Position numbers and translations under genes: made by a program. 51,009 nt of DNA from an uncultured Deferribacteres bacterium (GTDB lineage Bacteria; Zhuqueibacterota; JdFR-76; DREG01). The notes beneath the pieces were generated by a model. The model did no database searches and was not told where the DNA came from. It was given only the letters and a program-made list of their open reading frames with translations. Positions within the stretch are counted from its first letter, which is position 1, and each line of letters starts with the position of its first letter. The stretch lies in assembly GCA_964464595.1 (NCBI GenBank), contig CAYXGW010000029.1, positions 1 through 51,009 of the forward strand. The letters run 5' to 3'. This document shows, piece by piece, positions 1,848 through 36,844 of this stretch.

Positions 1848-2055
1848 TACCAATCTAGCCAACCGCCCTCCTCTTCAAATTTATATTAGCTACCAAATTG
1901 GATTTACAAATCCGCGAAAATTCATACTTTTTGTCATATTGCTATAGACTCTGCAATATTGACACTCTATTGGTTTTGATAATTAGTTATGTTGTAATTC
2001 CTGTAACAATATAATATTAATAAAGTTATAGCATGGTATTATATTATTCTTTTTT

Positions 2056-2071
2056 TGGCACGCCTATTGCT
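2056..2071 (+). promoter_or_regulatory. Candidate sigma54 (RpoN) -24/-12 promoter for hsp20
   Basis: TGGCACGcctaTTGCT matches the TGGCACG-N4-TTGCW consensus exactly. The GC of the -12 element lies 71 nt upstream of the hsp20 ATG. Confidence 0.55.
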
Positions 2072-2140
2072 TTCCAAAGAACAAAGAAATAAAAGTGAAA
2101 TCGAGTAAAATAAACAAAATAAATAGAAGGAGATAAAATT

Positions 2141-2590
2141 ATGACACTAGTAAGATGGCGACCGAGTAGAGATCTACTGAATATAAACAGCGATTTTGAT
2201 CGCTTATTCAGCGATTTTTTTGGCAATAGTCTAAGTAAAAGATATAATGGATCGGAAAGAACCATTTATCCAAGCATTGACCTTTTGGAGTCCGACAAAG
2301 AATTTGTCGTGAAAGCTGAGTTGCCGGGAATTGATAAAGACAATGTTAAGATAACTTTGCAGGAAAATATCTTAACTTTACTTGGTGACAAGATCCAGGA
2401 AAAGGAAGAGAAGAACGAAAATTATCGTCATAATGAAAGAATTTATGGCGTATTTGAGCGTTCGATTCGACTTCCAAATTTTGTTGATGCCAAGAAGATT
2501 AAGGCAAATTTTAAGGATGGAATATTAAGTATTAACTTGCCAAAATCAGCAGAAGCAAAGCTTAAAGAGATCCCTATTTCAGTCAATTAA
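2141..2590 (+). CDS. Hsp20/alpha-crystallin family small heat-shock protein
   Basis: The alpha-crystallin domain reads 'VVKAELPGIDKDNVKITLQENILTLLGDK...GVFERSIRLPNFVDAKKIKANFKDGILSINLPK'. An AGGAG RBS lies 8 nt upstream. Confidence 0.9.
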   Translation: MTLVRWRPSRDLLNINSDFDRLFSDFFGNSLSKRYNGSERTIYPSIDLLESDKEFVVKAELPGIDKDNVKITLQENILTLLGDKIQEKEEKNENYRHNERIYGVFERSIRLPNFVDAKKIKANFKDGILSINLPKSAEAKLKEIPISVN

Positions 2591-2605: not shown

Positions 2606-2639
2606 AGGGTGGCGATTTTACTGCCACCCTATTTTTTTC
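2606..2639 (+). terminator. Rho-independent terminator after hsp20
   Basis: Stem AGGGTGGC/GCCACCCT with a 9-nt loop, followed by a T7 run. Confidence 0.75.
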
Positions 2640-2697: not shown

Positions 2698-3201
2698 ATG
2701 ATTAAAATTGATATTGAGTTTGATAAAACAAATAAAACGGTAGAAAATACGCCAAGTAACAATAGCAACAACCAGAGCTCTAAAAGATCTGAATATTTAG
2801 AGTTATTTCAAATGACAAAGGCGGAGTTCGATAATTTTAAAAAAAGAACGGAGAAAGAAAAGTTGGAATTGTCGGAATTCGTTGAAGGAAATTTAATTTC
2901 AAAAATTCTTCCGGTATTGGATGATTTTGAAAGAATGTTGCAATCTGAAGTTCAAGTTAAACCGCTATTAGAAGGTTGTCGCTTAATTTACAAAAATCTT
3001 AATTCAATATTTACTGCACTTGGCTTAAGTGAGTTTGGAAAAATAGGAGATTCATTCGATCCAAATATGCATGAGGCAATCGCAGTAAATAAAGGGGAAG
3101 ATGAGATCGATAACAAAATAATGTCAATATTAGAAAAAGGCTATATATTTAAAAATAGAATACTTAGGTATGCGAAAGTTGAAGTTGGAGCAGCACAATA
3201 A
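2698..3201 (+). CDS. grpE: Nucleotide exchange factor GrpE
   Basis: The GrpE-like coiled-coil and head region reads '[15 protein letters not shown]...[12 protein letters not shown]...[23 protein letters not shown]'. The gene lies immediately upstream of dnaJ. Confidence 0.85.
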
Positions 3202-3221
3202 AGCAAAGGTATTACATAACA

Positions 3222-4115
3222 ATGTCTAACAAAGATTATTACAATATTTTAGGAATTAAAGAAAATGCTTCTTCAGATGAAATTAAAAAAGCCTATAGAA
3301 AACTAGCTAAAAAATATCATCCGGATTCGCATCCAGGTGATAAAACTGCAGAATCTCACTTTAAAAAGATTGCTGAAGCTTATGATGTTTTGTCAGATGT
3401 TACAAAAAGAAAGCAATATAATCAATATCGTAAATATGGTGGTTCTTTTCCCGGTGGTAATTTTGGCAATTCTCAATATGAGTGGAACACTTCAAATGGC
3501 TTAGGCTTTGATTTTGGAAGTAGTTTCGGTGATATTTTTTCCAATTTATTTGGTCAAAATGGCAGTAGTTCCAGGCGAAGCAGGGAAAGAAAAAGTCAGG
3601 ATATTTTTGCTGATTTACAAGTTCCTTTTAAAACAACTGCTTATGGTGGTAAACAAACATTTAGCATACAGGCTAACGGAGTAAAAAAAACTCTCTCAGT
3701 GAATATTAATCCGGGAATAGAGAACAAAGATCAAATTCGCTTATCAGGTCAAGGCTCTAGGGGAATCGGAGGCGAGCCAGGTGATTTGATTTTAACGGTT
3801 TATATCACACCTATAGCTAATTTTAAGAGAGAAGGATTAGATATTATTAACATCGTAGAATTAAATTTAGCTCAAGCTTTACTTGGAACAAAACTTAAAG
3901 TTCAAACATTAGAAGGCAGAAAGGTGCAAGTATCAATTCCTGAAGGAAGCCAGAATGGACAAAGACTTCGTCTTAAAGGACTAGGTATCAAAACTCGGAA
4001 TAATAAGTCTGGAGAATATTTTTTGGAATTTAAGATTAATATGCCAGCAAAACTTAATAAAGACCAAAAAGAACTAATTGAAGAATTTGCACGTAAGAGT
4101 AGTCTAAATTTTTAG
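3222..4115 (+). CDS. J-domain co-chaperone, class B (CbpA/DnaJB-like; J domain plus G/F-rich region, no CxxCxGxG zinc finger)
   Basis: J domain '[31 protein letters not shown]', followed by a Gly/Phe-rich linker and C-terminal substrate-binding domains. No Cys repeats are present. Confidence 0.85.
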
Positions 4116-4128
4116 AAAGGAAGCTATC

Positions 4129-5643
4129 ATGTTAAAAAATAGAAAATTTGGATTAGGTGTATCTTTAATATTTGTAATTGGACTAATGGTTGGAATAATC
4201 CTGACGTCTCAATTGAACACCGCAACCCCCTTAAACGCAACAACTGCGAATCCTGAAATTAATCCTAATCTTGTTCAGAATGCTGAACTAACACCTCAAC
4301 AGGATGATTTAATATCACAGTTAAATGGAATTTTTACGCAAGCTGCAAAAAAAATAAAACCGTCGGTTGTAACTATATTCAGCAAAAAAATCATAAAAAC
4401 TCGAGGCTATACAAGTCCACGTGATCTTTTTGATGAATTTTTTCGCGGACGACGAAGGCAACAACCTAATGAACGAGAATTTGTCCAAAAAGGAATGGGT
4501 TCTGGCGTTATTATTGATGCAGATGGTCTGATTCTAACAAACAACCATGTTGTTCAAGGTGCCGATGATATCAGTGTAAAAACAATAGACGGGAAAATCT
4601 ATGATGCTGAAATCATTGGGACAGATCCAAACACAGATTTAGCGGTAGTAAAAATCGATGTTACAGGTTTACCCGCAGCTAGTTTAGGTAATTCTGATCA
4701 ACTTGAAGTAGGCGAGTGGGTTTTAGCAGTTGGTAATCCTTTTTCAGAAGAATTGCATCAAACAGTTACTAAGGGAATTGTAAGTGCAAAAGGGCGTCAA
4801 GATTTAAATTTAGCTGCATATGAAGATTTCATTCAAACAGATGCTCCGATAAATCCTGGAAATAGTGGAGGGGCTTTGGTTAACTTACGTGGTGAATTAG
4901 TAGGAATTAATACTGCAATTATAGCTCCAAATGGGGCTTTTTCGGGCATCGGTTTTGCTATTCCTGTAAACTTGGCTAGAAGAATCATGAAGGATCTTAT
5001 TGATAAAGGTAGAGTAATTCGTGGCTATTTGGGGGTGGTCATTCAACCTGTAAATGCAGATCTTGCTAAGGTATTAAACCTGAAAGATACAAAGGGTGCA
5101 ATTATTTCGAGCGTTGAAAAAGATAGTCCGGCATACAATGCAGGGTTTAAATCATCGGACGTTATTTTAAAATTTGACGGTACAGAAATTCGTGATGATG
5201 ACCACCTCAGATTTGTAGTTGCGGACATTCAACCGGGGAAAAAAGTTCAGACAATCATTAATCGTGATGGGAAAGAAAAGAGACTCTCGATTGTTATAGG
5301 TGAACGGTCAGAACCGGGGCAGGAGTCCACTCCATCAGTCTCATCAACAATTAAACAAAAATTGGATATAGAAGTTAGCAATTTAACTTCTGAATTAACC
5401 GGACAATACGGCTATACCGAGAACAGTGGTGTGTTGATTACTCATGTTGGAACGAAAATTCAAACCCAGCGAAAAGATTTACGTGTGGGAGATTTAATCA
5501 AAGAAGTGAATCGAAAGAAAGTCACGATTGTTTCAGAATTTTATGAAATAATCAGAAACCTTGAAAAGGGAGATAGAGTATTATTTCTTGCCCAAAGAGG
5601 AGCGAATAACTTTTTTGAAGCATTAGAAATCAATGAGGATTAA
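4129..5643 (+). CDS. htrA: Periplasmic serine endoprotease HtrA/DegP family (trypsin domain plus two PDZ domains)
   Basis: 'LTNNHVV' carries the catalytic His, 'TDLAVVKI' the Asp and 'GNSGGALVN' the Ser. There is an N-terminal TM/signal and a PDZ-like C-terminal half. Confidence 0.9.
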   Translation: MLKNRKFGLGVSLIFVIGLMVGIILTSQLNTATPLNATTANPEINPNLVQNAELTPQQDDLISQLNGIFTQAAKKIKPSVVTIFSKKIIKTRGYTSPRDLFDEFFRGRRRQQPNEREFVQKGMGSGVIIDADGLILTNNHVVQGADDISVKTIDGKIYDAEIIGTDPNTDLAVVKIDVTGLPAASLGNSDQLEVGEWVLAVGNPFSEELHQTVTKGIVSAKGRQDLNLAAYEDFIQTDAPINPGNSGGALVNLRGELVGINTAIIAPNGAFSGIGFAIPVNLARRIMKDLIDKGRVIRGYLGVVIQPVNADLAKVLNLKDTKGAIISSVEKDSPAYNAGFKSSDVILKFDGTEIRDDDHLRFVVADIQPGKKVQTIINRDGKEKRLSIVIGERSEPGQESTPSVSSTIKQKLDIEVSNLTSELTGQYGYTENSGVLITHVGTKIQTQRKDLRVGDLIKEVNRKKVTIVSEFYEIIRNLEKGDRVLFLAQRGANNFFEALEINED

Positions 5644-5693
5644 ATTTTTCTTAAAATTGCTTAAAATTTAATAAATCCGGATAGTATTTTATT

Positions 5694-6938
5694 ATGATCT
5701 TCCATAGTAAAAGCAACATTCTTTTAATTGCATTCTTCATTGTGCTTGGATTGATGAGCATGGGTAGTCCTACCTTTTCTCAGACAAGCAGAACAATGAA
5801 TTATAATTTCCAGGTAAAACAATTTCCTACCGAAAACCCGGATAGCTCTTTGGTTCGATTTTATATTACTGTTTCTTTTGGTTCTTTGGTGTTTGTTCAT
5901 GAAGATTCAGGATTTGTTGCGGCAATTAGCTTTAATCTCTTTGTACAAGATAATGAAAAAAGCATTGTTTATGAATACCCTTGGCGAGAGAAAGTCCATG
6001 TCCGTAGTTATAAGCAAACCAGCAATGATTCTATAACAATTCAACTTAAAGACCAGGTAACCCTAAAGTCGGGAAAGTATAAGATAATCATAGAAGCGAC
6101 GGACGAAAACGTTGGGCTTTCAGACTACAGAGAAATCGAACTTATAGCAAAAGAGGGTACTAGTGAAGTATTAGTTCTCGGGGAAATCTTAAATGTTTAT
6201 GAATCGGTCAATAAAGATTTTGTTTTTAATGAGTTACACCCAATCCCGGACAATACAATTCATAATAAATTTAGCCTGGTTAGCGAAGCATTTGTAGTTA
6301 AACAAAATATTCATTGGACCGGGGAAGTTATCTGGATTGAGAATAATGAAGAAATTCGAAGGGATGATTTGAATTTATTTCATGTTGGTAGAAAATTAAA
6401 ATTGTCTCGTTCTTATTCTATTGAGGATACACCACTGGGTCATTTTTCGGTTTATTTTCGGTTAAAAGGAAATGGTTTTACTTCGAAGACTTTACCAATT
6501 GAGCTTGAAATATTTAAATTGGTTACCTTTATGGACGAAGAAAATTTGGATAAAGCTGTTGAACAAATACGATATATAGGAAGTGGGGCAATTTATGATT
6601 CTTTAACCTCAGCCAGAACGCTTGAACAAAAACAGCACTGGTTCCGTCAATTTTGGAATTCCAATTACCCTTCCAATGATTCCCTTCGAAATCCTATTAA
6701 AGAAGAGTTTTATCGAAGAATAAGGTTCTCTAATAGGGCTTTTGGATCCGGGTTTGAGGGTTGGAAAACAGATCGAGGCCATACTTATATAGTTTATGGG
6801 CCACCAGATGAAATTAATAGAGAGACAAATCAACGTATGTGGCGCTATGAAATTTGGGCGTACACTTCGTTAAGGAAACAATTTATTTTTGTCGATGAAT
6901 ATGGTACCGGAGATTACCGTTTGATTAGAGAGTACTAA
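5694..6938 (+). CDS. GWxTD domain-containing secreted protein
   Basis: Signal peptide, then a C-terminal 'GWKTDRGHTYIVYGPPDEI...WRYEIWAY' match to the GWxTD family signature. Confidence 0.7.
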   Translation: MIFHSKSNILLIAFFIVLGLMSMGSPTFSQTSRTMNYNFQVKQFPTENPDSSLVRFYITVSFGSLVFVHEDSGFVAAISFNLFVQDNEKSIVYEYPWREKVHVRSYKQTSNDSITIQLKDQVTLKSGKYKIIIEATDENVGLSDYREIELIAKEGTSEVLVLGEILNVYESVNKDFVFNELHPIPDNTIHNKFSLVSEAFVVKQNIHWTGEVIWIENNEEIRRDDLNLFHVGRKLKLSRSYSIEDTPLGHFSVYFRLKGNGFTSKTLPIELEIFKLVTFMDEENLDKAVEQIRYIGSGAIYDSLTSARTLEQKQHWFRQFWNSNYPSNDSLRNPIKEEFYRRIRFSNRAFGSGFEGWKTDRGHTYIVYGPPDEINRETNQRMWRYEIWAYTSLRKQFIFVDEYGTGDYRLIREY

Positions 6939-7002
6939 ACTCGACTTGATATTTTCAAAATAAAAAATAAATAGTATCTTTTGGTATCGGAGGTTGCAAT
7001 TT

Positions 7003-7302
7003 ATGCCTACTTATGAATATCGTTGTACTGTATGTGAAAATCAATTTGAAGTCTTTCAATCGATAAAAGATGATCCGATAGACTTATGTCCGGAGTGCGG
7101 GGGAAAAGCAAAAAAACTCTTAAGTGCCGGAATTGGATTAATTTTTAAAGGAAGTGGATTTTACATCACCGATTATAAAAATAATGGCAACAAATCTGAT
7201 AAAAAAGAAAATATTGAAAAAGAGAAAAAAAAGGAAACAGTTAGTTCCGGAAAAGGGGATGGTTCTCAATCCAAAACTTCAGAAAAATCAAAAAATCAAT
7301 AG
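7003..7302 (+). CDS. FmdB-family zinc-ribbon protein with a Lys/Ser-rich tail
   Basis: 'MPTYEYRCTVCENQFEV...CPECGG' is the FmdB CxxC...CxxC zinc ribbon. The ATG at 7003 lies 9 nt after GGAGG. The ORF-track TTG at 6994 is less likely. Confidence 0.7.
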   Translation: MPTYEYRCTVCENQFEVFQSIKDDPIDLCPECGGKAKKLLSAGIGLIFKGSGFYITDYKNNGNKSDKKENIEKEKKKETVSSGKGDGSQSKTSEKSKNQ

Positions 7303-7507
7303 AGAATATATTTGGTGGATTAAGTAAATTTCCGGTTTTTTCATCCGGAATATTCAATATGTAGAAATAATATCTGTCACATAGTCTAGCTCTTCTGACA
7401 ATAAGACCTTAATTTCTGTCATAATTTCAAATCACTCCTTTTTGTAGCATTTTGACAATTGTTCATAACTCATTGATAAATAAGAACTAATATCAATAAA
7501 CAAAACT

Positions 7508-7523
7508 TGGTACAGTGCTTGCT
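7508..7523 (+). promoter_or_regulatory. Candidate sigma54 -24/-12 promoter for the hsp20-dnaK operon
   Basis: TGGTACAgtgcTTGCT gives GG/GC at the canonical spacing, with the -12 GC 41 nt upstream of the hsp20 ATG. Confidence 0.5.
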
Positions 7524-7561: not shown

Positions 7562-7936
7562 ATGTCAGTTGGTCATATGTTAATGAAACAGAATACCCAT
7601 AATTGCCAAGTTCAAAAAGGGGTTTTCCCTGCAGTGGATGTTTCTGAATCTGATAAATCATTATTATTTCGAGCTGAATTGCCAGGATTTGATAAGAATG
7701 AATTGGAAGTAGCCTATGAAAAGGATAGGCTCATTCTTAAAGGTAAACGAAAACTTGAAATTAAATCTATGAAAGTTCATTTGAAAGAACGTTTTCAAGG
7801 GAAATTTGAACGTCAATTTGTTGTTTCTGAAGAGCTTAATCCGTCGGAATTTAAAGCCAGTTACAAGGATGGTATTTTGAGTGTATCGATTCCTAAAAAA
7901 GAGGAATTGAAGTTTTTGGATATCCCGATTAACTAA
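7562..7936 (+). CDS. Hsp20/alpha-crystallin family small heat-shock protein (second paralog)
   Basis: 'LLFRAELPGFDKNELEVAYEKDRLILKGKRK...FERQFVVSEELNPSEFKASYKDGILSVSIPKK'. A GGAGG RBS is present. Confidence 0.9.
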   Translation: MSVGHMLMKQNTHNCQVQKGVFPAVDVSESDKSLLFRAELPGFDKNELEVAYEKDRLILKGKRKLEIKSMKVHLKERFQGKFERQFVVSEELNPSEFKASYKDGILSVSIPKKEELKFLDIPIN

Positions 7937-7992
7937 CTATTTAATAAAATGAGATAGAAATTAATAAAAATTTACTAACGGAGGTAATTTAA

Positions 7993-9915
7993 ATGGGAAA
8001 AATTATTGGAATCGATTTAGGGACAACGAATTCATGTGTGGCGGTGATGGTCGGTGGTGAGCCGGTCGTTATCCAAAATTCTGAAGGGGTAAGGACTACT
8101 CCATCTATGGTGGGATTTCTGAAGAATGGTGAGAGGGTTGTTGGGCAACCTGCCAAGCGGCAAGCAATTACAAATCCGCAAAAAACAGTTTATTCCATCA
8201 AACGATTCATGGGTAGACGAAATAATGAAGTAACTGAAGAGATTAAGCAAGTGCCTTATAAGATTAAAAAGGGACGTGGAAATGTAGCTGTTGTAGATAT
8301 TGATGGAAAAGACTATACACCGCAAGAGATTTCCGCGATGGTTCTGCAAAAGATGAAGCAAACTGCCGAGGAATATTTAGGCGAAAAAGTAACAGAAGCT
8401 GTGATAACCGTTCCAGCTTATTTTAACGATAGCCAACGCACAGCTACGAAAGAAGCTGGTGAAGTTGCCGGTTTAAAGGTTAGACGAATAATTAATGAAC
8501 CTACAGCAGCTTCCCTGGCATATGGATTAGACAAGAAACATGATGAGAAAATTGCAGTTTATGATCTGGGTGGAGGGACTTTTGATATTTCGATCCTGGA
8601 ATTAGGTGATGGTGTATTTGAAGTGAAAGCAACAAGTGGTGATACTCATTTAGGTGGTGATGATTTTGATAAAAGAGTAATCGACTGGATGGTTGATGAA
8701 TTCAAAAAACAAGAAGGTGTAGATTTAAGCAAAGATCCTATGGCATTGCAGCGGTTAAAAGAAGCTGCTGAAAAAGCTAAAGTTGAATTGTCTAGTACTG
8801 CGCAAACCGATATTAATTTACCCTTTGTAACTGCTACTGAATCCGGGCCAAAGCATTTAACAGTCACTCTTTCTCGAGCTAAATTCGAACAACTTTGTGA
8901 AGATTTATTCGTACGATCCATTGAGCCTTGCAAAATCGCACTAAAAGATGCCAAGTTATCGGTCAATGATATTAATGAAGTTATAATCGTTGGTGGCTCA
9001 ACACGGATTCCTAAAATTCAAGATTTAGTAAAGGAATTCTTTAAGAAAGAGCCTAACCGAAGTGTAAATCCTGATGAAGTTGTGGCAATTGGTGCTGCAA
9101 TCCAGGGTGGTGTGCTTGCGGGTGAAGTTAAAGATGTTCTATTGCTTGATGTTACTCCGTTATCGCTCGGTATTGAGACTTTGGGTGGTGTAGCCACCAA
9201 ACTGATTGAAAAAAATACAACAGTTCCTACAAAGAAGACTGAAATATTCTCTACTGCTGCGGACAACCAGACTTCTGTCGAAATCCATGTATTGCAGGGT
9301 GAACGGGAAATGGCGACTTATAATAAATCTCTTGGCAAATTTCACCTAGATGGAATCCCGCCTTCGCCGCGTGGAGTGCCTCAAATTGAAGTGATCTTTG
9401 ATATCGATGCAAACGGAATTTTACACGTGAAAGCAATTGACAAAGCAACAAATAAAGAGCAATCAATTCGAATTGAAGCTTCCTCCGGATTATCTGATGC
9501 GGAAATTGAAAAAATGGTAAAAGATGCAGAACAGCATGCAGACGAAGATAAGAAACGTAAAGAAATAATTGATACTAAAAATCAGGCGGATCACCTGGTA
9601 TATACAACTGAAAAGAGCTTGAAGGAAAATGAAGAAAAAATATCAGACGATGATAAGAAGTCAATCGAATCTGCAATCGAAAAACTGAAAGAAGCAAATA
9701 AAGGTGAAAATGCTGAAGATATTAAGGCAGAGTTAGAAGCTGTAAACCAGGCCTGGGCTCCGGTTGCTCAGAAGCTTTATGCCGATGCTTCAACTGCTCA
9801 GGCTCAAGCTGAACCGCAACCAGATAGTGACGAAGCTCAAACAAGTAAAAATGGCAAAGAAAAAGTTGAAGATGCTGATTATGAAGTAATCGACGATCAA
9901 GATAAAAAAGAGTAA
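7993..9915 (+). CDS. dnaK: Molecular chaperone DnaK (Hsp70)
   Basis: '[18 protein letters not shown]', '[12 protein letters not shown]' and the C-terminal lid. 640 aa. Confidence 0.98.
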
Positions 9916-9935
9916 ATTACGAGGAATCTAATATT

Positions 9936-9975
9936 ACGGCGAGTTGGAAAATATCCTCTCGCCGTTTTTTATTTT
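9936..9975 (+). terminator. Rho-independent terminator after dnaK
   Basis: Stem ACGGCGAG/CTCGCCGT followed by TTTTTTATTTT. Confidence 0.8.
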
Positions 9976-10037
9976 CAGTTACAATTATTATGATCATAAA
10001 TATTCTTTGGAGAATTTAGGAATTTGGTATATAGCAG

Positions 10038-12650
10038 ATGACATTTGATAAATTGACAATAAAAGTACAAGAGGCATTGAAAAAAGCACAAGAAATTGCT
10101 TCTGAATATAATCAGCAAAAAGTAGATGTGGAACATCTTCTCTTTGCTATGTTAACTGATCCGGATGGAGTTCCTGTTTCAGCTTTAAATAAAATTGGAA
10201 TTAATGCTCAGGTGATTCAATCTCAGGTTACTAAACGGATTGAAAGCATTCCCAAAGTATATGGCGAGGTTTCTCAATTATATATGGATCAGAGGCTCAA
10301 TAAACTAATTGAGAAAGGATTTAAAGAAGCGAAAAATATGAAAGATGAGTATGTGAGTCTCGAACACCTACTTATCGTAATGACCGAGGATGAAGAGGAA
10401 ACGGGTAATATCCTTCGAAGTAATGGGATAACACGGGATAAATTGTATGATGTCCTCAAATCAATTCGGGGCAATCAGCGGGTGACAGACCAAAACCCTG
10501 AAGCAAAATATCAAGCGTTAGAGCGTTATGGACAAAATTTAACAAGTTTGGCAGAACAGGGGAAGTTGGATCCTGTAATCGGAAGAGACGAAGAAGTTAG
10601 ACGGGTTTTGCAAGTACTATCTCGCAGGACTAAAAACAACCCGGTATTGATTGGTGACCCGGGTGTTGGGAAAACTGCAATTGCTGAAGGATTAGCTCAA
10701 AGAATTGTTAGCGGCGATGTACCTGAGAATTTAAAGAACAAACAAATCGTCACATTAGACCTCGGTTCATTAATCGCCGGCTCAAAATATCGAGGTGAAT
10801 TTGAAGATAGATTAAAAGCGGTGCTAAAGGAAATCGAGGGGTCTAATGGCAAAATTATCCTGTTTATTGATGAGTTGCATACTCTGGTTGGAGCAGGAGC
10901 TGCAGAAGGATCTATGGATGCATCGAATATGCTTAAACCTGTATTGGCGCGTGGAGCGCTACGCTGTATCGGTGCAACTACTATAGATGAATTTAGAAAA
11001 TATATCGAAAAAGATGCAGCACTGGAACGCCGTTTCCAGAAAGTTTTTGTAAATGAACCCTCAGTATCGGAAACCATTTCAATTTTACGCGGACTAAAAG
11101 AGAAGTATGAAGTTCATCATGGTGTTCGGATGACTGATTCAGCCATTATTGCAGCGGCAACTTTATCGCACCGCTATATTAGTGATCGATTTTTGCCGGA
11201 TAAGGCTATCGATTTGGTAGACGAGGCGGCTGCAAAACTGCGGATTGAAATTGATAGTATGCCAGATGAGCTTGACGAAGTTGAGCGAAAAATAAAACAA
11301 TTGGAAATAGAACGAGAAGCTGTAAAACGAGATAAAGATGATGCTGCCAGAAATCGTTTAAACAAAATTCAAAAAGAATTGGCTGACTTGAATGAGCAAA
11401 GGAGGGAACTCCGATCACATTGGACTTTGGAAAAGAACTCCATCCAAACCATTAGATCCGTGAAAGAAGAACTGGAGAAAGTTAAAACTCTAATGGCGCA
11501 GGCGGAAAGAGATGGCGATTTAAGTCGAGCCGCTGAATTGAAGTATGGTAGGACGATAGACCTGCAAAAGAAACTTGAATCAGAAAATATTAATCTTCAG
11601 AATATTCAGAAAAATTTCAAAATGCTTAAAGAAGAAGTAGATGAGGAAGATATTGCAGACGTTGTATGTAAATGGACCGGAATACCAGTTAGCAGGATGC
11701 TTGAATCGGAGCGTGAGAAACTCTTGACAATGGAAAAACGCTTGAGAAAAAGAGTAATTGGGCAAGACGAAGCTGTCCAGGCAATTTCGGATGCAATTCG
11801 AAGGTCTCGTGCTGGTTTACAGGATGACAATAGACCCATTGGATCATTTATTTTCTTAGGGTCAACGGGTGTGGGCAAAACGGAATTAGCCAGGGCGTTG
11901 GCTGAATTTTTATTCGATGATGAACATGCGATGATTCGAATTGATATGTCCGAATATATGGAAAGACATTCGGTTGCCAGGCTTATCGGAGCGCCCCCGG
12001 GATATGTTGGCTACGAAGAAGGTGGGCAGTTGACCGAAGCCGTTAGACGAAAACCGTATTCAGTTGTTTTGTTGGATGAAATTGAAAAAGCACACCCTGA
12101 GGTCTTTAATATTCTTCTGCAAGTTTTGGATGATGGACGATTAACGGATAATAAAGGTCATACAGTCAATTTTAAAAATGTTATTGTGATCATGACTTCC
12201 AATTTAGGGGCTCCCATGATCCTGGAAAAATCATTATTGATTACAGAAAAGAATCGAGAGAAAATCTACCAGGAAATCAAATATGAAGCGATTGACTTAT
12301 TAAAAAGGTCAATGCGGCCAGAATTTCTAAATCGCATTGACGAAACTATCGTTTTTCATCCACTTGATTACAAACATATTGCTGAAATTGTGAAATTACA
12401 ATTTCAATTAGTTGCAAAAAAAGCCAATGAGAACGGAATCATTTTATCTATTGTAGACGATGCAATTCAACTACTTACTGAAGTTGGCTACGACCCTGCA
12501 TTTGGAGCCAGGCCAATTAAAAGAGAAATACAAAGATTGATCACCAATAAGCTTGCAAAAGAATTACTAGATGGAAGTATTGTTTCCGGAGATTTAGTCA
12601 AAGTAATTCGCGGTGGAAATTCTCTTGAATTTACAAAGAAATCAAAATAA
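10038..12650 (+). CDS. clpB: ATP-dependent chaperone/disaggregase ClpB
   Basis: Clp N domain, two AAA+ modules ('GDPGVGKT', 'GSTGVGKT') and a long coiled-coil M-domain between them. 870 aa. Confidence 0.97.
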
Positions 12651-13311: not shown

Positions 13312-14322
13312 ATGGCTAGTTTAATTCGGAGCAATTATTCATTGATTAAACAATTTGGAGATAGAATGGTGCAGAAGAAAAGCCTCTTTTGCTTTGTTTT
13401 TATTATCGCATTCGTTGCACTAAATGCTCAAATGATTATTGCGCAAACTTCAGTATTGGATTCGTTAAATACAAGAATTGAAATCTCGGCAAAAGTTGAA
13501 GAAACAACAGTTCCATTAAATCGCACTATTCAGTTGTATGTTACATTATCCTGGATAGGCGGACCGGATAGATATTCAATTATAAGTTTTGATAATCCTG
13601 TATTGACAAATTTTAATATTGTGGGCACATCTACTGTAAACCGATCTGAAGTAATTAACCAGCAAGCTTATGTTTTTAAAGATTATATCTATACTCTCCA
13701 ACCCCGCGATTTAGGGATGGCATACGTGGAGGGTGTGATTGTAAAATGCAGAGATTCTGTTTTGCAGCGCGATGAGAATATGGTCACCCAAAGGATTCCA
13801 ATAGAAGTTATTGATCCACTTCCGGAACCCGGTTCTTCTAATCTAATTTGGATTTATGCATTGATTATTGTTCTGATTTTAGGTTTTGGTACAGGGTATT
13901 ATTTTTGGTTCAAACGACGCCGAGAGGCAAAGGAGGAATTAGAAATTGAACCACCTCCACCTCTTGAAGAAGTATATTTAAATTTGATACGAGAACAAAT
14001 TAAACTTGATCTCCCAAATTTAACGGAAGATTTTGCAACTTTATCAAAGTTGATAAGACGCTACTTAACCGAACGGTTTAATATCCAAACCTTGGAAGGG
14101 ACGACAGATCAACTGCTTCAGGATTTACATGAGAATGATATGGAGGAACACCAGGTAAGCAGCCTCAAAGAGGTTCTAACGAGATGCGATGAAATTAAAT
14201 TTTCAGCCGTTGAAGGAACTACCGAAGAGTTAAATCGCTTTTATACCCTATTTGAAGGAATACTACAATATTTTTTGCAACAAAAAGAGACAACAGAGAC
14301 GAATAATTTTACAGAAAAATAA
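13312..14322 (+). CDS. BatD-like membrane protein (signal peptide, extracytoplasmic beta-rich domain, single TM, cytoplasmic helical tail)
   Basis: Signal 'FCFVFIIAFVALNAQ'. The N-terminal domain resembles the BatD N-terminus. TM 'LIWIYALIIVLILGFGTGYYFWF' is followed by 'KRRRE' and an acidic tail. The gene sits directly upstream of moxR. Confidence 0.5.
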   Translation: MASLIRSNYSLIKQFGDRMVQKKSLFCFVFIIAFVALNAQMIIAQTSVLDSLNTRIEISAKVEETTVPLNRTIQLYVTLSWIGGPDRYSIISFDNPVLTNFNIVGTSTVNRSEVINQQAYVFKDYIYTLQPRDLGMAYVEGVIVKCRDSVLQRDENMVTQRIPIEVIDPLPEPGSSNLIWIYALIIVLILGFGTGYYFWFKRRREAKEELEIEPPPPLEEVYLNLIREQIKLDLPNLTEDFATLSKLIRRYLTERFNIQTLEGTTDQLLQDLHENDMEEHQVSSLKEVLTRCDEIKFSAVEGTTEELNRFYTLFEGILQYFLQQKETTETNNFTEK

Positions 14323-14396
14323 GAAAAATAATCATTTTTAAACGTCTATAATTATTGAATACTAAAACATAATGAGTCGAAAAAGGAGGCCCAGTT

Positions 14397-15389
14397 TTGT
14401 TACACAAGGATATTAAAGAGATTAATGAGATGATTCAAAAAGAAAGTGAATTTGTTGAGAAGCTGCTTGGCGAATTCAACAAAATTATTATTGGTCAAAA
14501 ATATATGGTCGAACGTTTATTAATAGGCTTATTAAGCAATGGTCACATTTTACTCGAAGGTGTACCCGGCCTGGCCAAGACACTTGCCGTTCGTGTATTA
14601 TCCGGTGCAATAAAAGCTAAATTCCAGAGATTGCAATTTACTCCGGATTTACTTCCTGCTGATTTAATCGGAACGATGATTTTTAACCAACGCAGTGGAG
14701 ATTTTTCTACCAAAAAAGGTCCCATATTTGCGAATCTCATCTTGGCGGATGAAATCAACAGATCGCCTGCTAAAGTTCAAAGTGCACTTCTTGAAGCAAT
14801 GATGGAACGCCAAGTTACAATTGGAGAAAATACTTTTAAGCTGGACGATCCCTTTTTAGTGCTCGCTACACAAAATCCAATCGAACAAGAGGGAACCTAT
14901 CCATTACCGGAAGCCCAAATTGACCGATTTATGTTAAAGCTTTCCATCGGTTATCCAAATAAAGATGAGGAATTGGAGATCATGCGACTCAATTCAGGAG
15001 ATGGGTTACCGGAACCTACACCTGTGGTTAGTACAAAAGAGATCATTCGAGCTCGGAAAGTTGTATCTCAAATCTATATTGATGAAAAAATTGAACGCTA
15101 TATCATCGATATTGTCTTTGCTACTCGAAATCCTTCGGATTACCAACTCACCGATATGAAGGATCTGATTGCTTTTGGCGCCTCACCACGTGCTTCAATT
15201 GGGTTGGCTGCTGCCAGCAAGGCACATGCATTTTTAAGGCGAAGAGGATATGTAACTCCTGAAGATGTCCGAGCAATTGGCATGGATGTATTGAGACATC
15301 GTGTTATTCCAACGTACGAAGCCGAAGCGGAAGAAGTAAGTTCCGAGGACATAGTACGTAAAGTATTAAATCATATTGAAGTACCTTAA
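14397..15389 (+). CDS. MoxR-family AAA+ ATPase
   Basis: Walker A 'GVPGLAKT', Walker B 'LILADEINR', and 'ATQNPIEQEGTYPLPEAQIDRF'. A TTG start lies 7 nt after AGGAGG. Confidence 0.9.
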   Translation: MLHKDIKEINEMIQKESEFVEKLLGEFNKIIIGQKYMVERLLIGLLSNGHILLEGVPGLAKTLAVRVLSGAIKAKFQRLQFTPDLLPADLIGTMIFNQRSGDFSTKKGPIFANLILADEINRSPAKVQSALLEAMMERQVTIGENTFKLDDPFLVLATQNPIEQEGTYPLPEAQIDRFMLKLSIGYPNKDEELEIMRLNSGDGLPEPTPVVSTKEIIRARKVVSQIYIDEKIERYIIDIVFATRNPSDYQLTDMKDLIAFGASPRASIGLAAASKAHAFLRRRGYVTPEDVRAIGMDVLRHRVIPTYEAEAEEVSSEDIVRKVLNHIEVP

Positions 15390-15409
15390 TCGCTTTTCCA
15401 AAAATTAGT

Positions 15410-16288
15410 ATGATCCCTAAAGAAATACTTAAAAAAGTTAAGCGCATCGAAATTACAACCCGCGGTTTGGTAAATGATGTATTCTCCGGACAATACCATT
15501 CGGTATTCAAAGGAAGAGGGATGGATTTTACCGAAGTACGTGAGTACACTCCGGGTGATGACATACGTGTAATTGATTGGAACGTATCCGCACGAATGGG
15601 CCATCCTTTTGTTAAAGTATATGAAGAAGAGCGAGAATTAACGGTCATTTTAATGGTTGATGTCAGCTCATCTGGGAATTTTGGTACTTTTGAGCAAATG
15701 AAAGGTGAAATTGCAATTGAGATTTGTGCACTGCTGGCTTTTTCTGCAATTAAAAATAATGACAAAGTCGGTTTGATAATATTTACAGATGGAGTCGAAA
15801 AATTTGTAGCACCTAAAAAAGGCAAGAGTCATGTGCTTCGTGTGCTAAGAGAATTATTATTTCATAAACCCCAAAGTACAAAAACCGATATCGGTGGAGC
15901 CTTGGAATTTTTAAATCACATAGCAAAAAGAAGGAGTGTTGTTTTTTTGGTTTCAGATTTTATGTCAGAAGATTACAAAAAAGCGCTGCAAATAGCGAAT
16001 AAACGTCATGATGTAGTTGCAATCACAATCACAGATCCAAGAGAGACGGAATTGCCCGCAGTTGGATTTATCGAATTCGAAGATGCCGAAACCGGTGAGA
16101 TTTTCATGGTTGACACCAACAGTTCCGATATCCGTACCGGTTTCGTTCAAAAAGCGGATGCTCGCAAAATTGAACGTGAAAAACTATTTAAATCAATGAA
16201 TATCGACCATATAGATATTTTTACACATCAAGCTTACCCAGAGCCTTTAATGCGATTTTTTCGAATGCGAGCGAAACGGTTCAGATAG
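15410..16288 (+). CDS. DUF58 (vWA-like) protein, MoxR partner
   Basis: 'VREYTPGDDIRVIDWNVSAR', a DUF58 signature. Conserved gene order with moxR. Confidence 0.85.
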   Translation: MIPKEILKKVKRIEITTRGLVNDVFSGQYHSVFKGRGMDFTEVREYTPGDDIRVIDWNVSARMGHPFVKVYEEERELTVILMVDVSSSGNFGTFEQMKGEIAIEICALLAFSAIKNNDKVGLIIFTDGVEKFVAPKKGKSHVLRVLRELLFHKPQSTKTDIGGALEFLNHIAKRRSVVFLVSDFMSEDYKKALQIANKRHDVVAITITDPRETELPAVGFIEFEDAETGEIFMVDTNSSDIRTGFVQKADARKIEREKLFKSMNIDHIDIFTHQAYPEPLMRFFRMRAKRFR

Positions 16289-16317
16289 AAAAAACAAGAA
16301 TAGGAATATAAATAACA

Positions 16318-17244
16318 ATGAAATGGTGTAATTTGATTTTTTTCGTTATCTCTTTGGCGATTTTGACGGGTTGTAGTTCAAGTTCTCAACCGGATTTTAG
16401 TGCTGAAAAAATCCGGGAATTTGCCAATGAACTTTATAATCGACAGCTGTTTGAACAAGCAGTCGATCAATATCAGTTTTATCTCGAAAACTACAACCTG
16501 AAGCCAAAAGAGCAGGCGAATATTACCTATCAAATTGCTAATATTTATTTTGATCGCATGCGTGATTATAAAAATGCACTTGCACATTTTCTTAAAATCA
16601 AAACTTTATATCCGGAAAGCCCGCTTATTTCGGAAGTGAACAAAAAAGTCATCATCTGTTTAGAACGATTACAAAGACCCGCCGATGCTCAACAAGTGTT
16701 GAGGGAAAGCACATCGTTTGAAGGTCAGACCCGCAAAAGTCGCCCGGGAGAAGTCATAGCTAAGATTGGCAAGCGAGATATCACATTAGGAGACCTGGAT
16801 TTTGAGATCAGCAAATTGCCACCTGAGCTCCGGTCACAATATATCACGATTGATAATAAAATAGAATTTCTTCGCAGGTATTTGGCAACAGAATTATTGT
16901 ATGATTCTGCCAAACGACAGGGGCTCGAAAATGATGATCAGGTTTTGGAAAACGTTTTTCAAGCAAAAAAAACTTTTATGGTAACAAAGTTATTAGAAGA
17001 AGAAATCAGTAAAAAAGTAAAAATCACAGAAGATGATGTTAAACTTTATTATGATGCACATAAAAATGATTTTGCGGAAAAAGATGAAGATGGAAATGTG
17101 AAACGGATGTTGTCCTTTGAAGAAGCGGGTCAACAAGCAGCACAAAAATTAGCTTTTGAGCGACAAGAAAAAGCATATAATGAATTGATTTCCTCGTTAT
17201 TTCTAGCCGAAAAAGTCGTAATTTATGATGACCTGATAAAATAA
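16318..17244 (+). CDS. Lipoprotein with a TPR-like N-terminus and a SurA-N-like chaperone domain
   Basis: Lipobox 'ILTGC', then helical repeats. The C-terminal half has periplasmic-chaperone-like character. Confidence 0.45.
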   Translation: MKWCNLIFFVISLAILTGCSSSSQPDFSAEKIREFANELYNRQLFEQAVDQYQFYLENYNLKPKEQANITYQIANIYFDRMRDYKNALAHFLKIKTLYPESPLISEVNKKVIICLERLQRPADAQQVLRESTSFEGQTRKSRPGEVIAKIGKRDITLGDLDFEISKLPPELRSQYITIDNKIEFLRRYLATELLYDSAKRQGLENDDQVLENVFQAKKTFMVTKLLEEEISKKVKITEDDVKLYYDAHKNDFAEKDEDGNVKRMLSFEEAGQQAAQKLAFERQEKAYNELISSLFLAEKVVIYDDLIK

Positions 17245-17257
17245 ACCGGTAGATTAA

Positions 17258-18355
17258 ATGATGTTTGGTTACAAAAAAATTTATTTAATTTTAATTCTCA
17301 TTTATTTATTTATTTTCAATTTTGTTTCCGATGGATTCGGTCAGGGTAACATTTCGCTGTCTGCCAGTGTGGATAAAGCGACAATTACCATTGGTGATAT
17401 CATAACCTATTCAGTATCTGTTATACGAGATGAGGATGTATCTGTCGAACTTCCAAGCTTGGGTGGAAACCTGGGACAATTCGAAATTCGTGATTATAAC
17501 ATTTATGAACCTGAAAAAAAAGATGGCAAAATCATTGACCGGGTTGATTATACAATTTCGACCTTTGAGGTTGGTGAATTTGAGATACCACCGGTTGGTA
17601 TCAGGTATTTTATCCTACCGGATTCAACTGAACAAAGCCTCAAAACCGAAGTGATTAATATTACTGTAGAAAGTGTTAAACCCAGCGAAGAAGGCGATAT
17701 CCAAGATATTAAACCACCCTGGGAAATCTTATTCAATTGGAGGCCCATTATTATTGGCGGATCGATCGCATTAATTGTGATTCTACTAATAATCGGTTTG
17801 ACTATTTATTTGCGCAAGCGGAAAAAAGGCGAATCATTTTTGCCGAAAAAAATTGAAATACCCAGGCCTCCCCATGAAATTGCTTATGAAGAGCTTAAAA
17901 TATTACAAAATTCGGATCTTCTTAAACAGGGTCAAATCAAGCTTTATTATTCAGAAATATCGGAAATTATTCGGAAATATATTGAGGGGCGATTTCAAAT
18001 TATTTCGCTTGAACTAACTACTACAGAATTGATGATTGAACTTAATACTACAGATTTATCTTCAGAAAATGTATCACTTTTTGAAATGTTTTTTACCAAT
18101 TGCGACCTGGTTAAATTTGCAAAGTTTATTCCAGGTGATGAAGAAAATGATGAAATTATGAAGTCAGCTATTCGCATTTTAGATGAAACCAAATGGGTAG
18201 AGGAACTAATTTCGGAGCTGCAAGAAAAAACGACGGATGATGAAGTGAAAGTCGATGACAAAGATCAAATGAAAGATGAAAGGAATCAACATGCTGAAGT
18301 TGCAATTGTCACGGATGAAGAGCTTTCGTCAAATTTGAATAAGGAAGATAATTAG
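17258..18355 (+). CDS. BatD-like / Bat-operon membrane protein (signal, extracytoplasmic domain, one TM, cytoplasmic tail)
   Basis: 'ISLSASVDKATITIGDIITYSVSV...' resembles the BatD N-terminal domain. TM 'WRPIIIGGSIALIVILLIIGLTIYL' is followed by RKRKK. The gene sits between DUF58 and batA, where Bat operons carry a small membrane protein. Confidence 0.5.
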   Translation: MMFGYKKIYLILILIYLFIFNFVSDGFGQGNISLSASVDKATITIGDIITYSVSVIRDEDVSVELPSLGGNLGQFEIRDYNIYEPEKKDGKIIDRVDYTISTFEVGEFEIPPVGIRYFILPDSTEQSLKTEVINITVESVKPSEEGDIQDIKPPWEILFNWRPIIIGGSIALIVILLIIGLTIYLRKRKKGESFLPKKIEIPRPPHEIAYEELKILQNSDLLKQGQIKLYYSEISEIIRKYIEGRFQIISLELTTTELMIELNTTDLSSENVSLFEMFFTNCDLVKFAKFIPGDEENDEIMKSAIRILDETKWVEELISELQEKTTDDEVKVDDKDQMKDERNQHAEVAIVTDEELSSNLNKEDN

Positions 18356-19351: not shown

Positions 19352-19367
19352 GACTTTTAGGATTACA

Positions 19368-20399: not shown

Positions 20400-20425
20400 A
20401 CTTATTCGACCAAATAGGTAATATT

Positions 20426-21148: not shown

Positions 21149-21152
21149 GAAA

Positions 21153-29046: not shown

Positions 29047-29056
29047 TAATTAATTC

Positions 29057-29698: not shown

Positions 29699-29714
29699 CT
29701 AGTTTGAGGATAAT

Positions 29715-34677: not shown

Positions 34678-34686
34678 AAAAATAAA

Positions 34687-36093: not shown

Positions 36094-36168
36094 AACGGAA
36101 TAAACAAAAACTGGTAAGGTTTTTACGAATGAAATTCAGTAACAATAATAAAATGAGGAGACAATCAA

Positions 36169-36789: not shown

Positions 36790-36844
36790 TGATTGAAATT
36801 TAGAATTCTCGTATTTACACCAAAATTATCTGGAGGTAATTAAG

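What the first reader, a model, noticed from the sequence alone, without database searches (positions are those of the whole stretch)
1931..2140. Sigma54-type promoter with an upstream palindrome in front of a small heat-shock gene
TGGCACGcctaTTGCT (2056-2071) is a textbook -24/-12 element correctly placed for the hsp20 at 2141. About 95-125 nt upstream lies an imperfect inverted repeat, TGTCATATTGC-n9-TGCAATATTGACA (1931-1963). That is the position and geometry expected of a bacterial enhancer-binding-protein site. RpoN-dependent transcription of heat-shock genes is unusual and would imply an EBP-mediated stress circuit. No EBP gene with an AAA+ sigma54-interaction domain is in this window.
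Basis: partly seen in the sequence, partly recalled or inferred. Interest (0 to 1): 0.6.

Follow-up and report, generated by a model that had tools for sequence, protein, structure and literature searches.

The report
Sigma-54 heat-shock promoter with enhancer sites
The small heat-shock gene, and a second one in front of dnaK, each sit behind a conserved sigma-54 promoter with activator-binding sites about 100-145 bases upstream, an arrangement already reported in Bacteroidota that this work extends to a KSB1-like bacterium and many other phyla.

Summary
TGGCACGcctaTTGCT (2056-2071) is the only exact sigma-54 consensus in the window (0 of 100 shuffles). The inverted repeat is present but lies at 1932-1964, one base off.

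It is best read as two 13-bp dyads, TGTCA-TAT-TGCTA and TGCAA-TAT-TGACA, centred 20 bp apart. A second sigma-54 promoter (7508-7523) with its own TGTCA/TGACA cluster precedes hsp20B-dnaK. Both modules are conserved in relatives whose flanking DNA has diverged.

Across 80 hsp20 loci from many phyla, 28-40 carry a sigma-54 promoter. The dyad TGYCA-N3-TGRCA is about 100-fold enriched 60-180 bp upstream of those promoters and absent where there is no such promoter. A sampled metagenome scan for dyad plus promoter returned mostly dnaK, hsp20 and groES/EL.

The best explanation is an activator-dependent sigma-54 chaperone regulon. The activator is not in the window. NtrC-type response regulators sit next to the module in three other lineages.

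Sigma-54 chaperone promoters are already documented in Flavobacterium and predicted in Bacteroidota and Planctomycetota. This is therefore a new member of a known kind. I did not find the dyad motif described in the searchable literature.

The parts
1932..1944 (.). Distal activator site (dyad A), TGTCA-TAT-TGCTA. The outer half is perfect and the inner half degenerate.
   Evidence: Sequence. Rank 12 of about 51,000 positions against a dyad matrix built from other phyla. The half-sites are conserved and the 3-nt spacer varies in L005.
1952..1964 (.). Proximal activator site (dyad B), TGCAA-TAT-TGACA. Its centre is 20 bp from dyad A and about 99 bp upstream of the -24 GG.
   Evidence: Rank 2 in the window against the dyad matrix. 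Conserved in L001-L005.
1965..2055 (.). AT-rich spacer between the activator sites and the promoter, presumed to be the looping segment. It has no IHF consensus.
   Evidence: Sequence. The IHF pattern scan found no site here. The looping role is inferred.
2056..2071 (+). Sigma-54 -24/-12 promoter P1, TGGCACGcctaTTGCT.
   Evidence: Only exact consensus match in the window, 0 of 100 shuffles. The TGGCA and the whole CCTATTGC stretch are invariant in L001-L005, with one C-to-T change in the -24 element of L005 (TGGCAT), while the flanks diverge.
2082..2140 (+). Predicted 5' leader. The transcription start is inferred at about 2082, some 12 nt after the -12 GC. The leader is A-rich and unstructured, with AAGGAG at 2127-2132.
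   Evidence: Minimum free energy 0 kcal/mol, so no thermometer-like fold. No Rfam family reached its gathering score. The start site is inferred from promoter geometry and has not been mapped.
2141..2590 (+). hsp20A, a small heat-shock protein of 149 aa.
   Evidence: Pfam HSP20, E 1.2e-22. 91% identical to a candidate division KSB1 protein.
2606..2637 (+). Strong intrinsic terminator after hsp20A (9-bp stem with 6 GC pairs, then a T-run).
   Evidence: -18.5 kcal/mol, z -4.6. It implies that hsp20A is largely its own transcription unit.
2698..6938 (+). Downstream proteostasis genes: grpE, dnaJ/cbpA-like, htrA and a GWxTD-domain protein. They may be reached by read-through. No promoter of their own was identified.
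   Evidence: Pfam. Gene order is conserved in L001-L005. Co-transcription has not been shown.
7375..7400 (.). Upstream element of the second module, TGTCAcatagtctagctcttcTGACA. It is strongly conserved but does not fit the 13-bp dyad.
   Evidence: the left half is invariant in L001-L005. The matrix score is poor. Its exact role is unexplained.
7417..7457 (.). Two dyad-like sites, TGTCATAATTTCA (7417-7429) and TAGCATTTTGACA (7445-7457).
   Evidence: Ranks 19 and 12 against the dyad matrix. The first is conserved in relatives and the second is not.
7466..7478 (-). IHF-consensus match (TATCAATGAGTTA) between the second site cluster and promoter P2.
   Evidence: There were 9 matches in the window against 7.8 expected, so it is not significant on its own. 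Only its position is suggestive.
7508..7523 (+). Second sigma-54 promoter P2, TGGTACAgtgcTTGCT (10 of 12). Close relatives have TGGCAC.
7562..9915 (+). hsp20B (7562-7936) and dnaK (7993-9915). A hairpin and T-run follow at about 9938-9971.
   Evidence: Pfam. Sequence.

Best explanation
This is an enhancer-dependent sigma-54 promoter module for chaperone genes in a KSB1-like bacterium. RNA polymerase carrying sigma-54 binds TGGCACG-N4-TTGCT as a closed complex that cannot open by itself. An AAA+ enhancer-binding protein, encoded elsewhere in the genome, binds the two 13-bp dyads at 1932-1944 and 1952-1964. These lie on the same DNA face, about 124 and 144 bp upstream of the inferred start. The activator then loops across the AT-rich spacer and uses ATP to open the promoter. 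Transcription starts near 2082. It yields an unstructured, A-rich leader and hsp20A, and mostly stops at the terminator at 2606-2637. A sister module at 7375-7523 drives hsp20B-dnaK. The activator is most likely an NtrC-type response regulator (receiver, AAA+ and Fis-type HTH domains), so the stress signal would arrive through phosphorylation by a histidine kinase.

Shown: the sequence elements, their conservation, their statistical association with chaperone genes across phyla, and the absence of an RNA thermometer and of CIRCE.

Inferred: sigma-54 dependence in vivo, the start site, which protein binds the dyads, and that heat or protein misfolding is the inducing signal.
For: - The exact 16-nt consensus is unique in the window, with 0 of 100 shuffles matching.
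- Promoter and both dyads are conserved in L005 (Hsp20 73% identical) although the flanks have diverged. The half-sites are kept while the 3-nt spacers change, as expected for protein-binding sites.
- A second promoter with a TGTCA/TGACA cluster lies before hsp20B-dnaK and is also conserved.
- Half-sites and matrix hits cluster in the window at P about 3e-6 each.
- Of 80 hsp20 loci from other phyla, 28 (strict) to 40 (relaxed) have a sigma-54 promoter 38-140 nt upstream.
- TGNCA-N3-TGNCA occurs 24 times in the 7 kb upstream of those promoters against 0.09 expected. Only the 3-nt spacing shows enrichment of this size; other spacings give 1-7 hits. The dyad is absent from the 40 loci without such a promoter. 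Its centres cluster near -85 and -125.
- A metagenome scan for the dyad, 100-130 nt, then TGGCAC-N5-TTGC returned 74 loci with a downstream ORF. The first genes were 20 dnaK, 9 hsp20, 3 groEL and 2 groES.
- NtrC-type activator genes abut the module in L011, L052 (with a kinase gene) and L118.
- Precedents exist in PMC9723704, PMC12316311, PMC2831329 and PMC3892784.
Against: - No activator gene and no rpoN gene are in the window, so sigma-54 in this genome is inferred only from the promoters.
- Neither dyad in the window is a perfect TGYCA-N3-TGRCA. Each has one degenerate half.
- The best-conserved element of the second module (7375-7400) does not fit the 13-bp model.
- The three neighbouring activators are only 37-44% identical to one another and are not demonstrably one orthologous group.
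- Closer relatives of the L011 activator are mostly not next to chaperone genes.
- The same dyad class also occurs next to activators of unrelated genes (L102, L112, L161, L170), so the motif alone does not identify one regulator.
- There are no expression data for this organism. In Flavobacterium the sigma-54 chaperone cluster was reported induced on blood agar and under osmotic stress, and heat was not reported (PMC9723704).
Confidence: 0.8

Rival explanations
1. The inverted repeat at 1932-1964 acts as an RNA hairpin, that is a terminator or stabiliser for the upstream T9SS-type gene ending at 1847, and not as a protein-binding site.
For: As RNA it folds to -10.7 kcal/mol, z -2.5, with 2 of 200 shuffles doing as well. 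It lies 85 nt after the upstream stop codon.
Against: The stem is AT-rich and no T-run follows it. The terminator scan did not flag it, although it found the real terminator at 2606. The same half-sites recur upstream of the second promoter with no hairpin potential. The 13-bp dyad is enriched only upstream of sigma-54 promoters in unrelated genomes with different upstream genes.
Confidence: 0.05
2. The dyads bind a regulator that is not an AAA+ activator, for example a heat-shock repressor or an accessory DNA-bending protein, and the sigma-54 promoter is activated from elsewhere or from solution.
For: No activator has been assigned. The dyad class occurs in several contexts. The element at 7375-7400 is conserved but does not fit the dyad.
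Against: A position 60-180 bp upstream of the -24 element, in phased pairs 20 or 40 bp apart, is the classic activator geometry, and a repressor would be expected to overlap the promoter (established knowledge of sigma-54 systems). The dyad is absent from hsp20 loci lacking sigma-54 promoters. In L011, L052 and L118 the dyads lie directly beside an activator gene.
Confidence: 0.1
3. The -24/-12 match is fortuitous or vestigial, and hsp20A is really transcribed from a sigma-70-family promoter, whether housekeeping or RpoH-like.
For: The region is AT-rich and holds several weak sigma-70-like matches, for example at 2017-2045 and 2111-2139. Promoter types of this phylum are unknown.
Against: The sigma-70-like matches are fewer than in shuffles (25 against 30.2). 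The sigma-54 element is exact, unique and conserved while its neighbours diverge. All sites scoring 11 of 12 or better in about 1 Mb of related loci lie in front of an hsp20 gene or immediately downstream of one.
Confidence: 0.05

Closest known systems
Sigma-54 (SM4-motif) chaperone promoters of Flavobacterium psychrophilum, Bacteroidota (Guerin et al. 2021, PMC9723704)
   Same: In both cases -24/-12 promoters lie directly upstream of proteostasis genes. In Flavobacterium these are dnaK, grpE-dnaJ, groESL, clpB, lon and htpG, with mapped starts, co-expressed as a cluster. The lineage belongs to the same broad FCB group as KSB1 (T9SS sorting domains occur in the window). The activator was not assigned there either.
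   Different: Here the promoters lead with hsp20 genes. clpB has no -24/-12 element in its 120-nt upstream region. The phylum is different. That paper does not mention palindromes, inverted repeats or upstream activating sequences, whereas a phased dyad pair is defined here. This organism has no transcript data.
Computational survey of sigma-54 regulons (Carrera-Reyna et al. 2025, PMC12316311)
   Same: It reports that GroEL, GroES, IbpA, GrpE, DnaJ and DnaK COGs are enriched for predicted sigma-54 promoters in Bacteroidota and Planctomycetota.
   Different: In the passages I read the chaperone enrichment is named only for Bacteroidota and Planctomycetota. My loci also include Ignavibacteria, Zixibacteria, Calditrichota, Gemmatimonadota, Poribacteria, Verrucomicrobia and Dadabacteria. 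I did not see an upstream activator motif described in those passages.
Myxococcus xanthus HsfB/HsfA two-component system activating lonD (Ueki and Inouye, J Biol Chem 277:6170, cited in PMC3892784)
   Same: A heat-shock gene is driven by an NtrC-type response-regulator activator with a partner histidine kinase. This is the architecture seen next to the module in L052.
   Different: The target gene and phylum differ. Orthology to HsfA was not tested. The activator of the window's organism is unidentified.
Escherichia coli ibpB sigma-54 promoter (Kuczynska-Wisnik et al. 2001, used as ChIP positive control in PMC2831329)
   Same: A small heat-shock gene carries a sigma-54 promoter.
   Different: In E. 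coli it is an auxiliary promoter beside sigma-32 control, and dnaK is explicitly not sigma-54 dependent (PMC2831329). Here dnaK lies behind the second sigma-54 promoter, and the promoter match is far closer to consensus.

Membership tests
Sigma-54 (RpoN) dependent promoter | GG and GC doublets exactly 10 nt apart within TGGCAC-N5-TTGC, on the coding strand upstream of a gene | tested here: met
   12 of 12 consensus positions at 2056-2071, 69 nt before the ATG. Unique in the window, with 0 of 100 shuffles matching.
Sigma-54 (RpoN) dependent promoter | Conservation of the element in orthologous loci | tested here: met
   The TGGCA and the whole CCTATTGC stretch are invariant in L001-L005, with one C-to-T change in the -24 element of L005, while the flanks diverge. 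28-40 of 80 homologous hsp20 loci in other phyla have one.
Sigma-54 (RpoN) dependent promoter | rpoN present in the genome, and transcription starting about 12 nt after the -12 GC and abolished without rpoN | not testable with these tools
   No rpoN gene was found in the window (Pfam scans). No transcript data or genetics are available.
Enhancer-binding-protein upstream activating sequence | Dyad-symmetric sites, usually two or more and helically phased, about 80-200 bp upstream of the -24 element | tested here: met
   The dyad centres are at 1938 and 1958, 20 bp apart, at -119 and -99 from the GG. Other phyla show the same class at -85 and -125.
Enhancer-binding-protein upstream activating sequence | The same motif recurs at other promoters of the regulon | tested here: met
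   Sites at 7417-7429 and 7445-7457 lie before P2. Cross-phylum enrichment is 24 observed against 0.09 expected. A pattern scan recovered chaperone genes.
Enhancer-binding-protein upstream activating sequence | A cognate AAA+ activator (GAFTGA loop plus DNA-binding domain) that binds the sites | tested here: inconclusive
   None is in the window. NtrC-type activators adjoin the module in L011, L052 and L118, but orthology is unclear. Binding cannot be tested here.
Bacteroidota-type sigma-54 proteostasis regulon | Sigma-54 promoters in front of several chaperone and protease units (dnaK, grpE-dnaJ, groESL, clpB, lon, htpG) | tested here: inconclusive
   Met for hsp20A (possibly with grpE-dnaJ-htrA) and for hsp20B-dnaK. 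Not met for clpB (no -24/-12 element in 9916-10037). groESL, lon and htpG are not in the window.
RNA thermometer (ROSE or fourU type) control of small heat-shock genes | A structured 5' leader that masks the ribosome-binding site | tested here: not met
   The leader 2082-2160 has a minimum free energy of 0 kcal/mol, and the hsp20B leader folds worse than shuffles. No Rfam family reached its gathering score.
HrcA/CIRCE heat-shock repression | The inverted repeat TTAGCACTC-N9-GAGTGCTAA near chaperone promoters | tested here: not met
   No match in the window even with 3 mismatches allowed.

The most novel reading that the evidence does not exclude
Many non-proteobacterial phyla (FCB relatives such as KSB1, Ignavibacteria, Zixibacteria, Calditrichota and Bacteroidota, plus Poribacteria, Verrucomicrobia and probably Planctomycetota) may share one ancient heat-shock circuit. 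In it the core chaperone genes are driven by sigma-54, and a single still-unnamed family of NtrC-type response regulators recognises the dyad TGYCA-N3-TGRCA. This circuit would take the place that sigma-32 or HrcA holds in textbook bacteria. The window would be one instance of it, and the dyad would be the handle for finding the regulator and its kinase.
Probability: 0.4. Interest if true: 0.65.

Novelty: new member of a known kind. Interest (0 to 1): 0.45.

Why it matters
Textbook heat-shock control rests on sigma-32, HrcA/CIRCE, HspR or CtsR. A sigma-54 route works differently. It gives essentially no transcription without an ATP-driven activator, so the stress signal must pass through a dedicated sensor protein.

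This window shows that the sigma-54 route reported for Flavobacterium also operates in an uncultured KSB1-like lineage. The comparative work adds a concrete, testable cis-element, TGYCA-N3-TGRCA in phased pairs. That element predicts chaperone genes across phyla and could be used to identify the unknown activator and sensor. For annotation of metagenome-assembled genomes, it offers a simple way to call the stress regulon.

Tried and rejected
- **Ungapped repeat finder on 1848-2140.**
- **Whole 13-mer with mismatches.** Not enriched (37 matches against 29.6 expected). Only the matrix and half-site tests were informative.
- **RNA thermometer idea.** Rejected, because the leader is unstructured.
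- **CIRCE/HrcA.** Rejected.
- **IHF site between the activator sites and P1.** None found. The one before P2 is not significant.
- **Rfam.** Only sub-threshold chance hits, mostly on the terminator.
- **clpB as a third sigma-54 unit.** Rejected.
- **Apparent TGGTAT...TTGC before the zinc-ribbon gene (6978-6994).** The spacing is one base too long and it overlaps the ribosome-binding site, so it was rejected from the sequence.
- **Finding the activator by orthology.** Relatives of the L011 activator were looked up in four places. One lies next to hsp20-lon, but no sigma-54 promoter or dyad was found near that hsp20. The others are not near chaperones, so no orthologous group could be tied to the module.
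- **The window's stand-alone receiver protein (25065-25532).** It is unrelated (19% identity) to the receiver family found behind the module in metagenomes.
- **First attempt at the metagenome pattern.** It failed on a syntax rule and was rerun as the reverse complement.
- **Literature search for the motif string.** It found nothing.

Full report
**What is in the window.** The window has 36.6% GC. Its first 12.6 kb form a proteostasis supercluster on the + strand:
- the end of a Big_5/T9SS-tailed surface protein (to 1847)
- hsp20A (2141-2590)
- grpE (2698-3201)
- a dnaJ/cbpA-like gene (3222-4115)
- htrA (4129-5643)
- a GWxTD-domain gene (5694-6938)
- a small zinc-ribbon gene (6994-7302)
- hsp20B (7562-7936)
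- dnaK (7993-9915)
- clpB (10038-12650)

The closest named protein to Hsp20A is 91% identical and comes from a candidate division KSB1 bacterium.

**Check of the observation.** TGGCACGCCTATTGCT is at 2056-2071 as stated. It matches every specified position of TGGCACG-N4-TTGCW. It is the only such match on either strand of 51 kb, and none occurred in 100 dinucleotide-preserving shuffles. Its arms differ by one indel, so the ungapped repeat finder missed it. No activator gene is present. There is no GAFTGA-type loop in any frame. Pfam scans of 48 of the 55 ORFs of 100 aa or more, including nearly all the long + strand ORFs, show only a weak AAA+ cross-hit of PF00158 inside ClpB.

**A second module in the same window.** A one-mismatch scan found TGGTACAgtgcTTGCT at 7508-7523, 38 nt before hsp20B-dnaK. 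Close relatives have TGGCAC at this position. Upstream of it lie:
- TGTCAcatagtctagctcttcTGACA (7375-7400)
- TGTCATAATTTCA (7417-7429)
- TAGCATTTTGACA (7445-7457)

The two 131-nt upstream regions together hold six TGTCA/TGACA half-sites against 0.37 expected from the window's own frequency (P about 3e-6).

**Conservation.** Syntenic loci were recovered for proteins 91% (L001-L004) and 73% (L005) identical to Hsp20A. In L005 the intergenic DNA has largely diverged, but three things survive: both dyads, the promoter (TGGCATGCCTATTGCA) and the ribosome-binding site. Within the dyads the TGTCA, TGCTA, TGCAA and TGACA pentamers are kept, while the three central bases change (TAT to TGT, TAT to TAA). 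One base is also inserted between the two sites. That pattern fits two protein-binding sites better than one long hairpin. The second module is likewise conserved. A 52%-identical locus of another lineage (L006) has TTGGCACagtcaTTGCT before hsp20-hsp20-dnaK and a cluster of TGTCA repeats upstream.

**The module across phyla.** A genome-collection scan with an Hsp20 alignment gave 80 loci. Twenty-eight have a site scoring 10 of 12 or better with GG and GC, 38-140 nt before the hsp20 start. Forty qualify if TTGT at -12 and 9 of 12 are allowed. They are labelled Ignavibacteria, Zixibacteria, Calditrichota, Gemmatimonadota, Poribacteria, Cytophagia/Bacteroidetes, Verrucomicrobiia, Phycisphaerae and Dadabacteria. 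Loci labelled Chlorobiaceae, Nitrospirota, Desulfobacterota, Dehalococcoidales and Atribacteria lack a high-scoring site. All sites scoring 11 of 12 or better in about 1 Mb of these loci lie in front of an hsp20 gene or immediately downstream of one.

**The dyad motif.** Reading the upstream regions showed a recurring 13-bp dyad, for example TGTCATATTGGCA, TGCCATAATGACA and TGTCAAATTGACA.
- Formally, TGYCA-N3-TGRCA occurs 19 times in the 7 kb upstream of the 40 promoters. It occurs 6 times in the other 947 kb and 0 times upstream of the 40 hsp20 genes without such a promoter.
- With any central base (TGNCA-N3-TGNCA), the count is 24 against 0.09 expected.
- Only the 3-nt spacing shows enrichment of this size. 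Other spacings give 1-7 hits, against 24 at N3.
- The inverted arrangement dominates (19 inverted, 5 direct, 0 everted).
- Centres cluster near -85 and -125 from the -24 GG.

A matrix built from these foreign sites ranks 1952-1964 second and 1932-1944 twelfth among all window positions. The two sites before P2 rank 12th and 19th. Their centres are 20 bp apart, about two helical turns.

**An independent test.** I scanned metagenome contigs for the dyad, 100-130 nt, then TGGCAC-N5-TTGC, with no reference to any gene. Of the 74 loci with a downstream ORF, the first gene was:
- dnaK in 20
- hsp20 in 9
- groEL in 3
- groES in 2
- a single-domain receiver protein of about 136 aa in 12 (lying just upstream of groEL in L139, the one such locus whose neighbourhood I examined)
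- a zinc-ribbon protein like the one at 6994 in 1

The rest are mixed and probably include chance matches and other regulons. In the chaperone-linked set the commonest form is TGCCA-AAA-TGGCA. The cis-module is thus a good predictor of chaperone genes.

**Which activator.** The window gives no answer. In three unrelated loci an NtrC-type response regulator (receiver, Sigma54_activat and HTH_8 domains) sits directly beside the module:
- In L011 it is divergent from hsp20-dnaK, with TGTCA/TGACA elements and TGGCACGgtaaTTGT in the shared 130-nt spacer.
- In L052 it is divergent from hsp20 and followed by a histidine-kinase gene.
- In L118 the activator's stop codon is followed by two dyads, TTTGGCACtcgagTTGC and dnaK.

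These three proteins are only 37-44% identical to one another. Closer relatives of the L011 protein are mostly not next to chaperone genes. I therefore cannot name one orthologous group. The dyad class also occurs beside activators of unrelated genes: GspC-like, MTHFR-like and NifX-like. The class of regulator is a reasoned inference, and its identity remains open.

**Other layers of control were checked.**
- The predicted leader (about 2082-2140) is completely unstructured, so an RNA thermometer is unlikely.
- There is no CIRCE element.
- No Rfam family reached its gathering score.
- A strong terminator follows hsp20A. hsp20A is therefore probably a separate unit, and transcription of grpE-dnaJ-htrA remains unexplained.
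- clpB has no -24/-12 element.
- As RNA the repeat could fold to -10.7 kcal/mol. It lacks a T-run, however, and the comparative data favour a DNA site.

**Comparison with what is known.**
- Sigma-54 promoters with mapped starts precede groESL, lon, dnaK, grpE-dnaJ, htpG, skp and clpB in Flavobacterium psychrophilum. The activator is unassigned, and the paper does not mention an upstream element (PMC9723704).
- A 2025 matrix-based survey found chaperone COGs enriched for sigma-54 promoters in Bacteroidota and Planctomycetota (PMC12316311).
- E. coli ibpB has an auxiliary sigma-54 promoter, whereas E. coli dnaK does not (PMC2831329).
- Myxococcus uses the HsfB/HsfA kinase and NtrC-type pair for lonD (PMC3892784).
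- I found no paper containing the dyad written in six common notations.

**Verdict.** It is a new member of a known kind and not a new kind. It extends the sigma-54 chaperone regulon to a KSB1-like lineage. The survey suggests the same circuit, with a shared activator-site motif, is widespread outside the classical model phyla. The motif and its breadth are the parts that may be new. They rest on sequence statistics only and need start-site mapping and binding assays.

Noticed in passing
window 7375-7523: A second sigma-54 promoter (TGGTACAgtgcTTGCT) with its own TGTCA/TGACA cluster lies in front of hsp20B-dnaK. The most conserved piece, TGTCAcatagtctagctcttcTGACA, does not fit the 13-bp dyad, and its role is unclear.
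   Followed up: yes
L108, L120, L125, L129, L134, L139 (4072-4482), L148, L158, L159 and others: A family of single-domain receiver proteins of about 136 aa (MVSNLSKLEEVNVLAS...FIKKY) sits directly behind the dyad plus sigma-54 module in 12 metagenome contigs. In L139 it lies just upstream of groEL. It may be a feedback component of the same circuit.
   Followed up: partly
L091 2072-2084 and L092 1921-1933: In two loci, one named Zixibacteria (L092) and one unnamed (L091), a perfect dyad (TGTCAGAATGGCA or TGTCAAAATGACA) overlaps the start codon of a Na/Pi-cotransporter gene. That gene heads a kinase-activator gene pair related to the L011 activator. No sigma-54 promoter is nearby. This could be autoregulation or chance.
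   Followed up: no
L102, L170, L112, L161: The same dyad-plus-promoter pattern lies next to activator genes but in front of non-chaperone genes (GspC/PDZ-like, MTHFR-like, NifX-like). The dyad class is therefore not exclusive to chaperone regulons.
   Followed up: partly
window 25065-25532 (- strand): A stand-alone receiver protein whose sequence resembles the receiver domain of NtrC-type activators (…VILLTGYPSVESAVHSMKEGAYDYLIKPIDL…) but which has no AAA+ or DNA-binding part. It is not related to the metagenome receiver family above.
   Followed up: partly
window 33712-41143: A bacterial microcompartment locus: a SorC-type sugar-binding regulator, an RpiB-DeoC fusion, BMC shell proteins (36845, 39003), an aldehyde dehydrogenase and a class II aldolase.
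   Followed up: no
window 13312-23801: A MoxR / DUF58 / BatA-BatD aerotolerance-type operon with TPR proteins, followed by a ferritin gene (23874-24374).
   Followed up: no
window 28420-30767: An ECF sigma factor, a zf-HC2 anti-sigma factor and a DegS-like trypsin/PDZ protease in a row. This is a second, envelope-type stress module.
   Followed up: no
window 6994-7302; L006 10734-10952; L093: A small FmdB-type zinc-ribbon gene keeps company with the heat-shock genes in several lineages. In one metagenome contig (L093) it is the first gene behind the dyad plus sigma-54 module.
   Followed up: no
window 2606-2637: A strong intrinsic terminator lies between hsp20A and grpE, and I could not recognise a promoter for grpE-dnaJ-htrA in 2640-2697.
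   Followed up: partly
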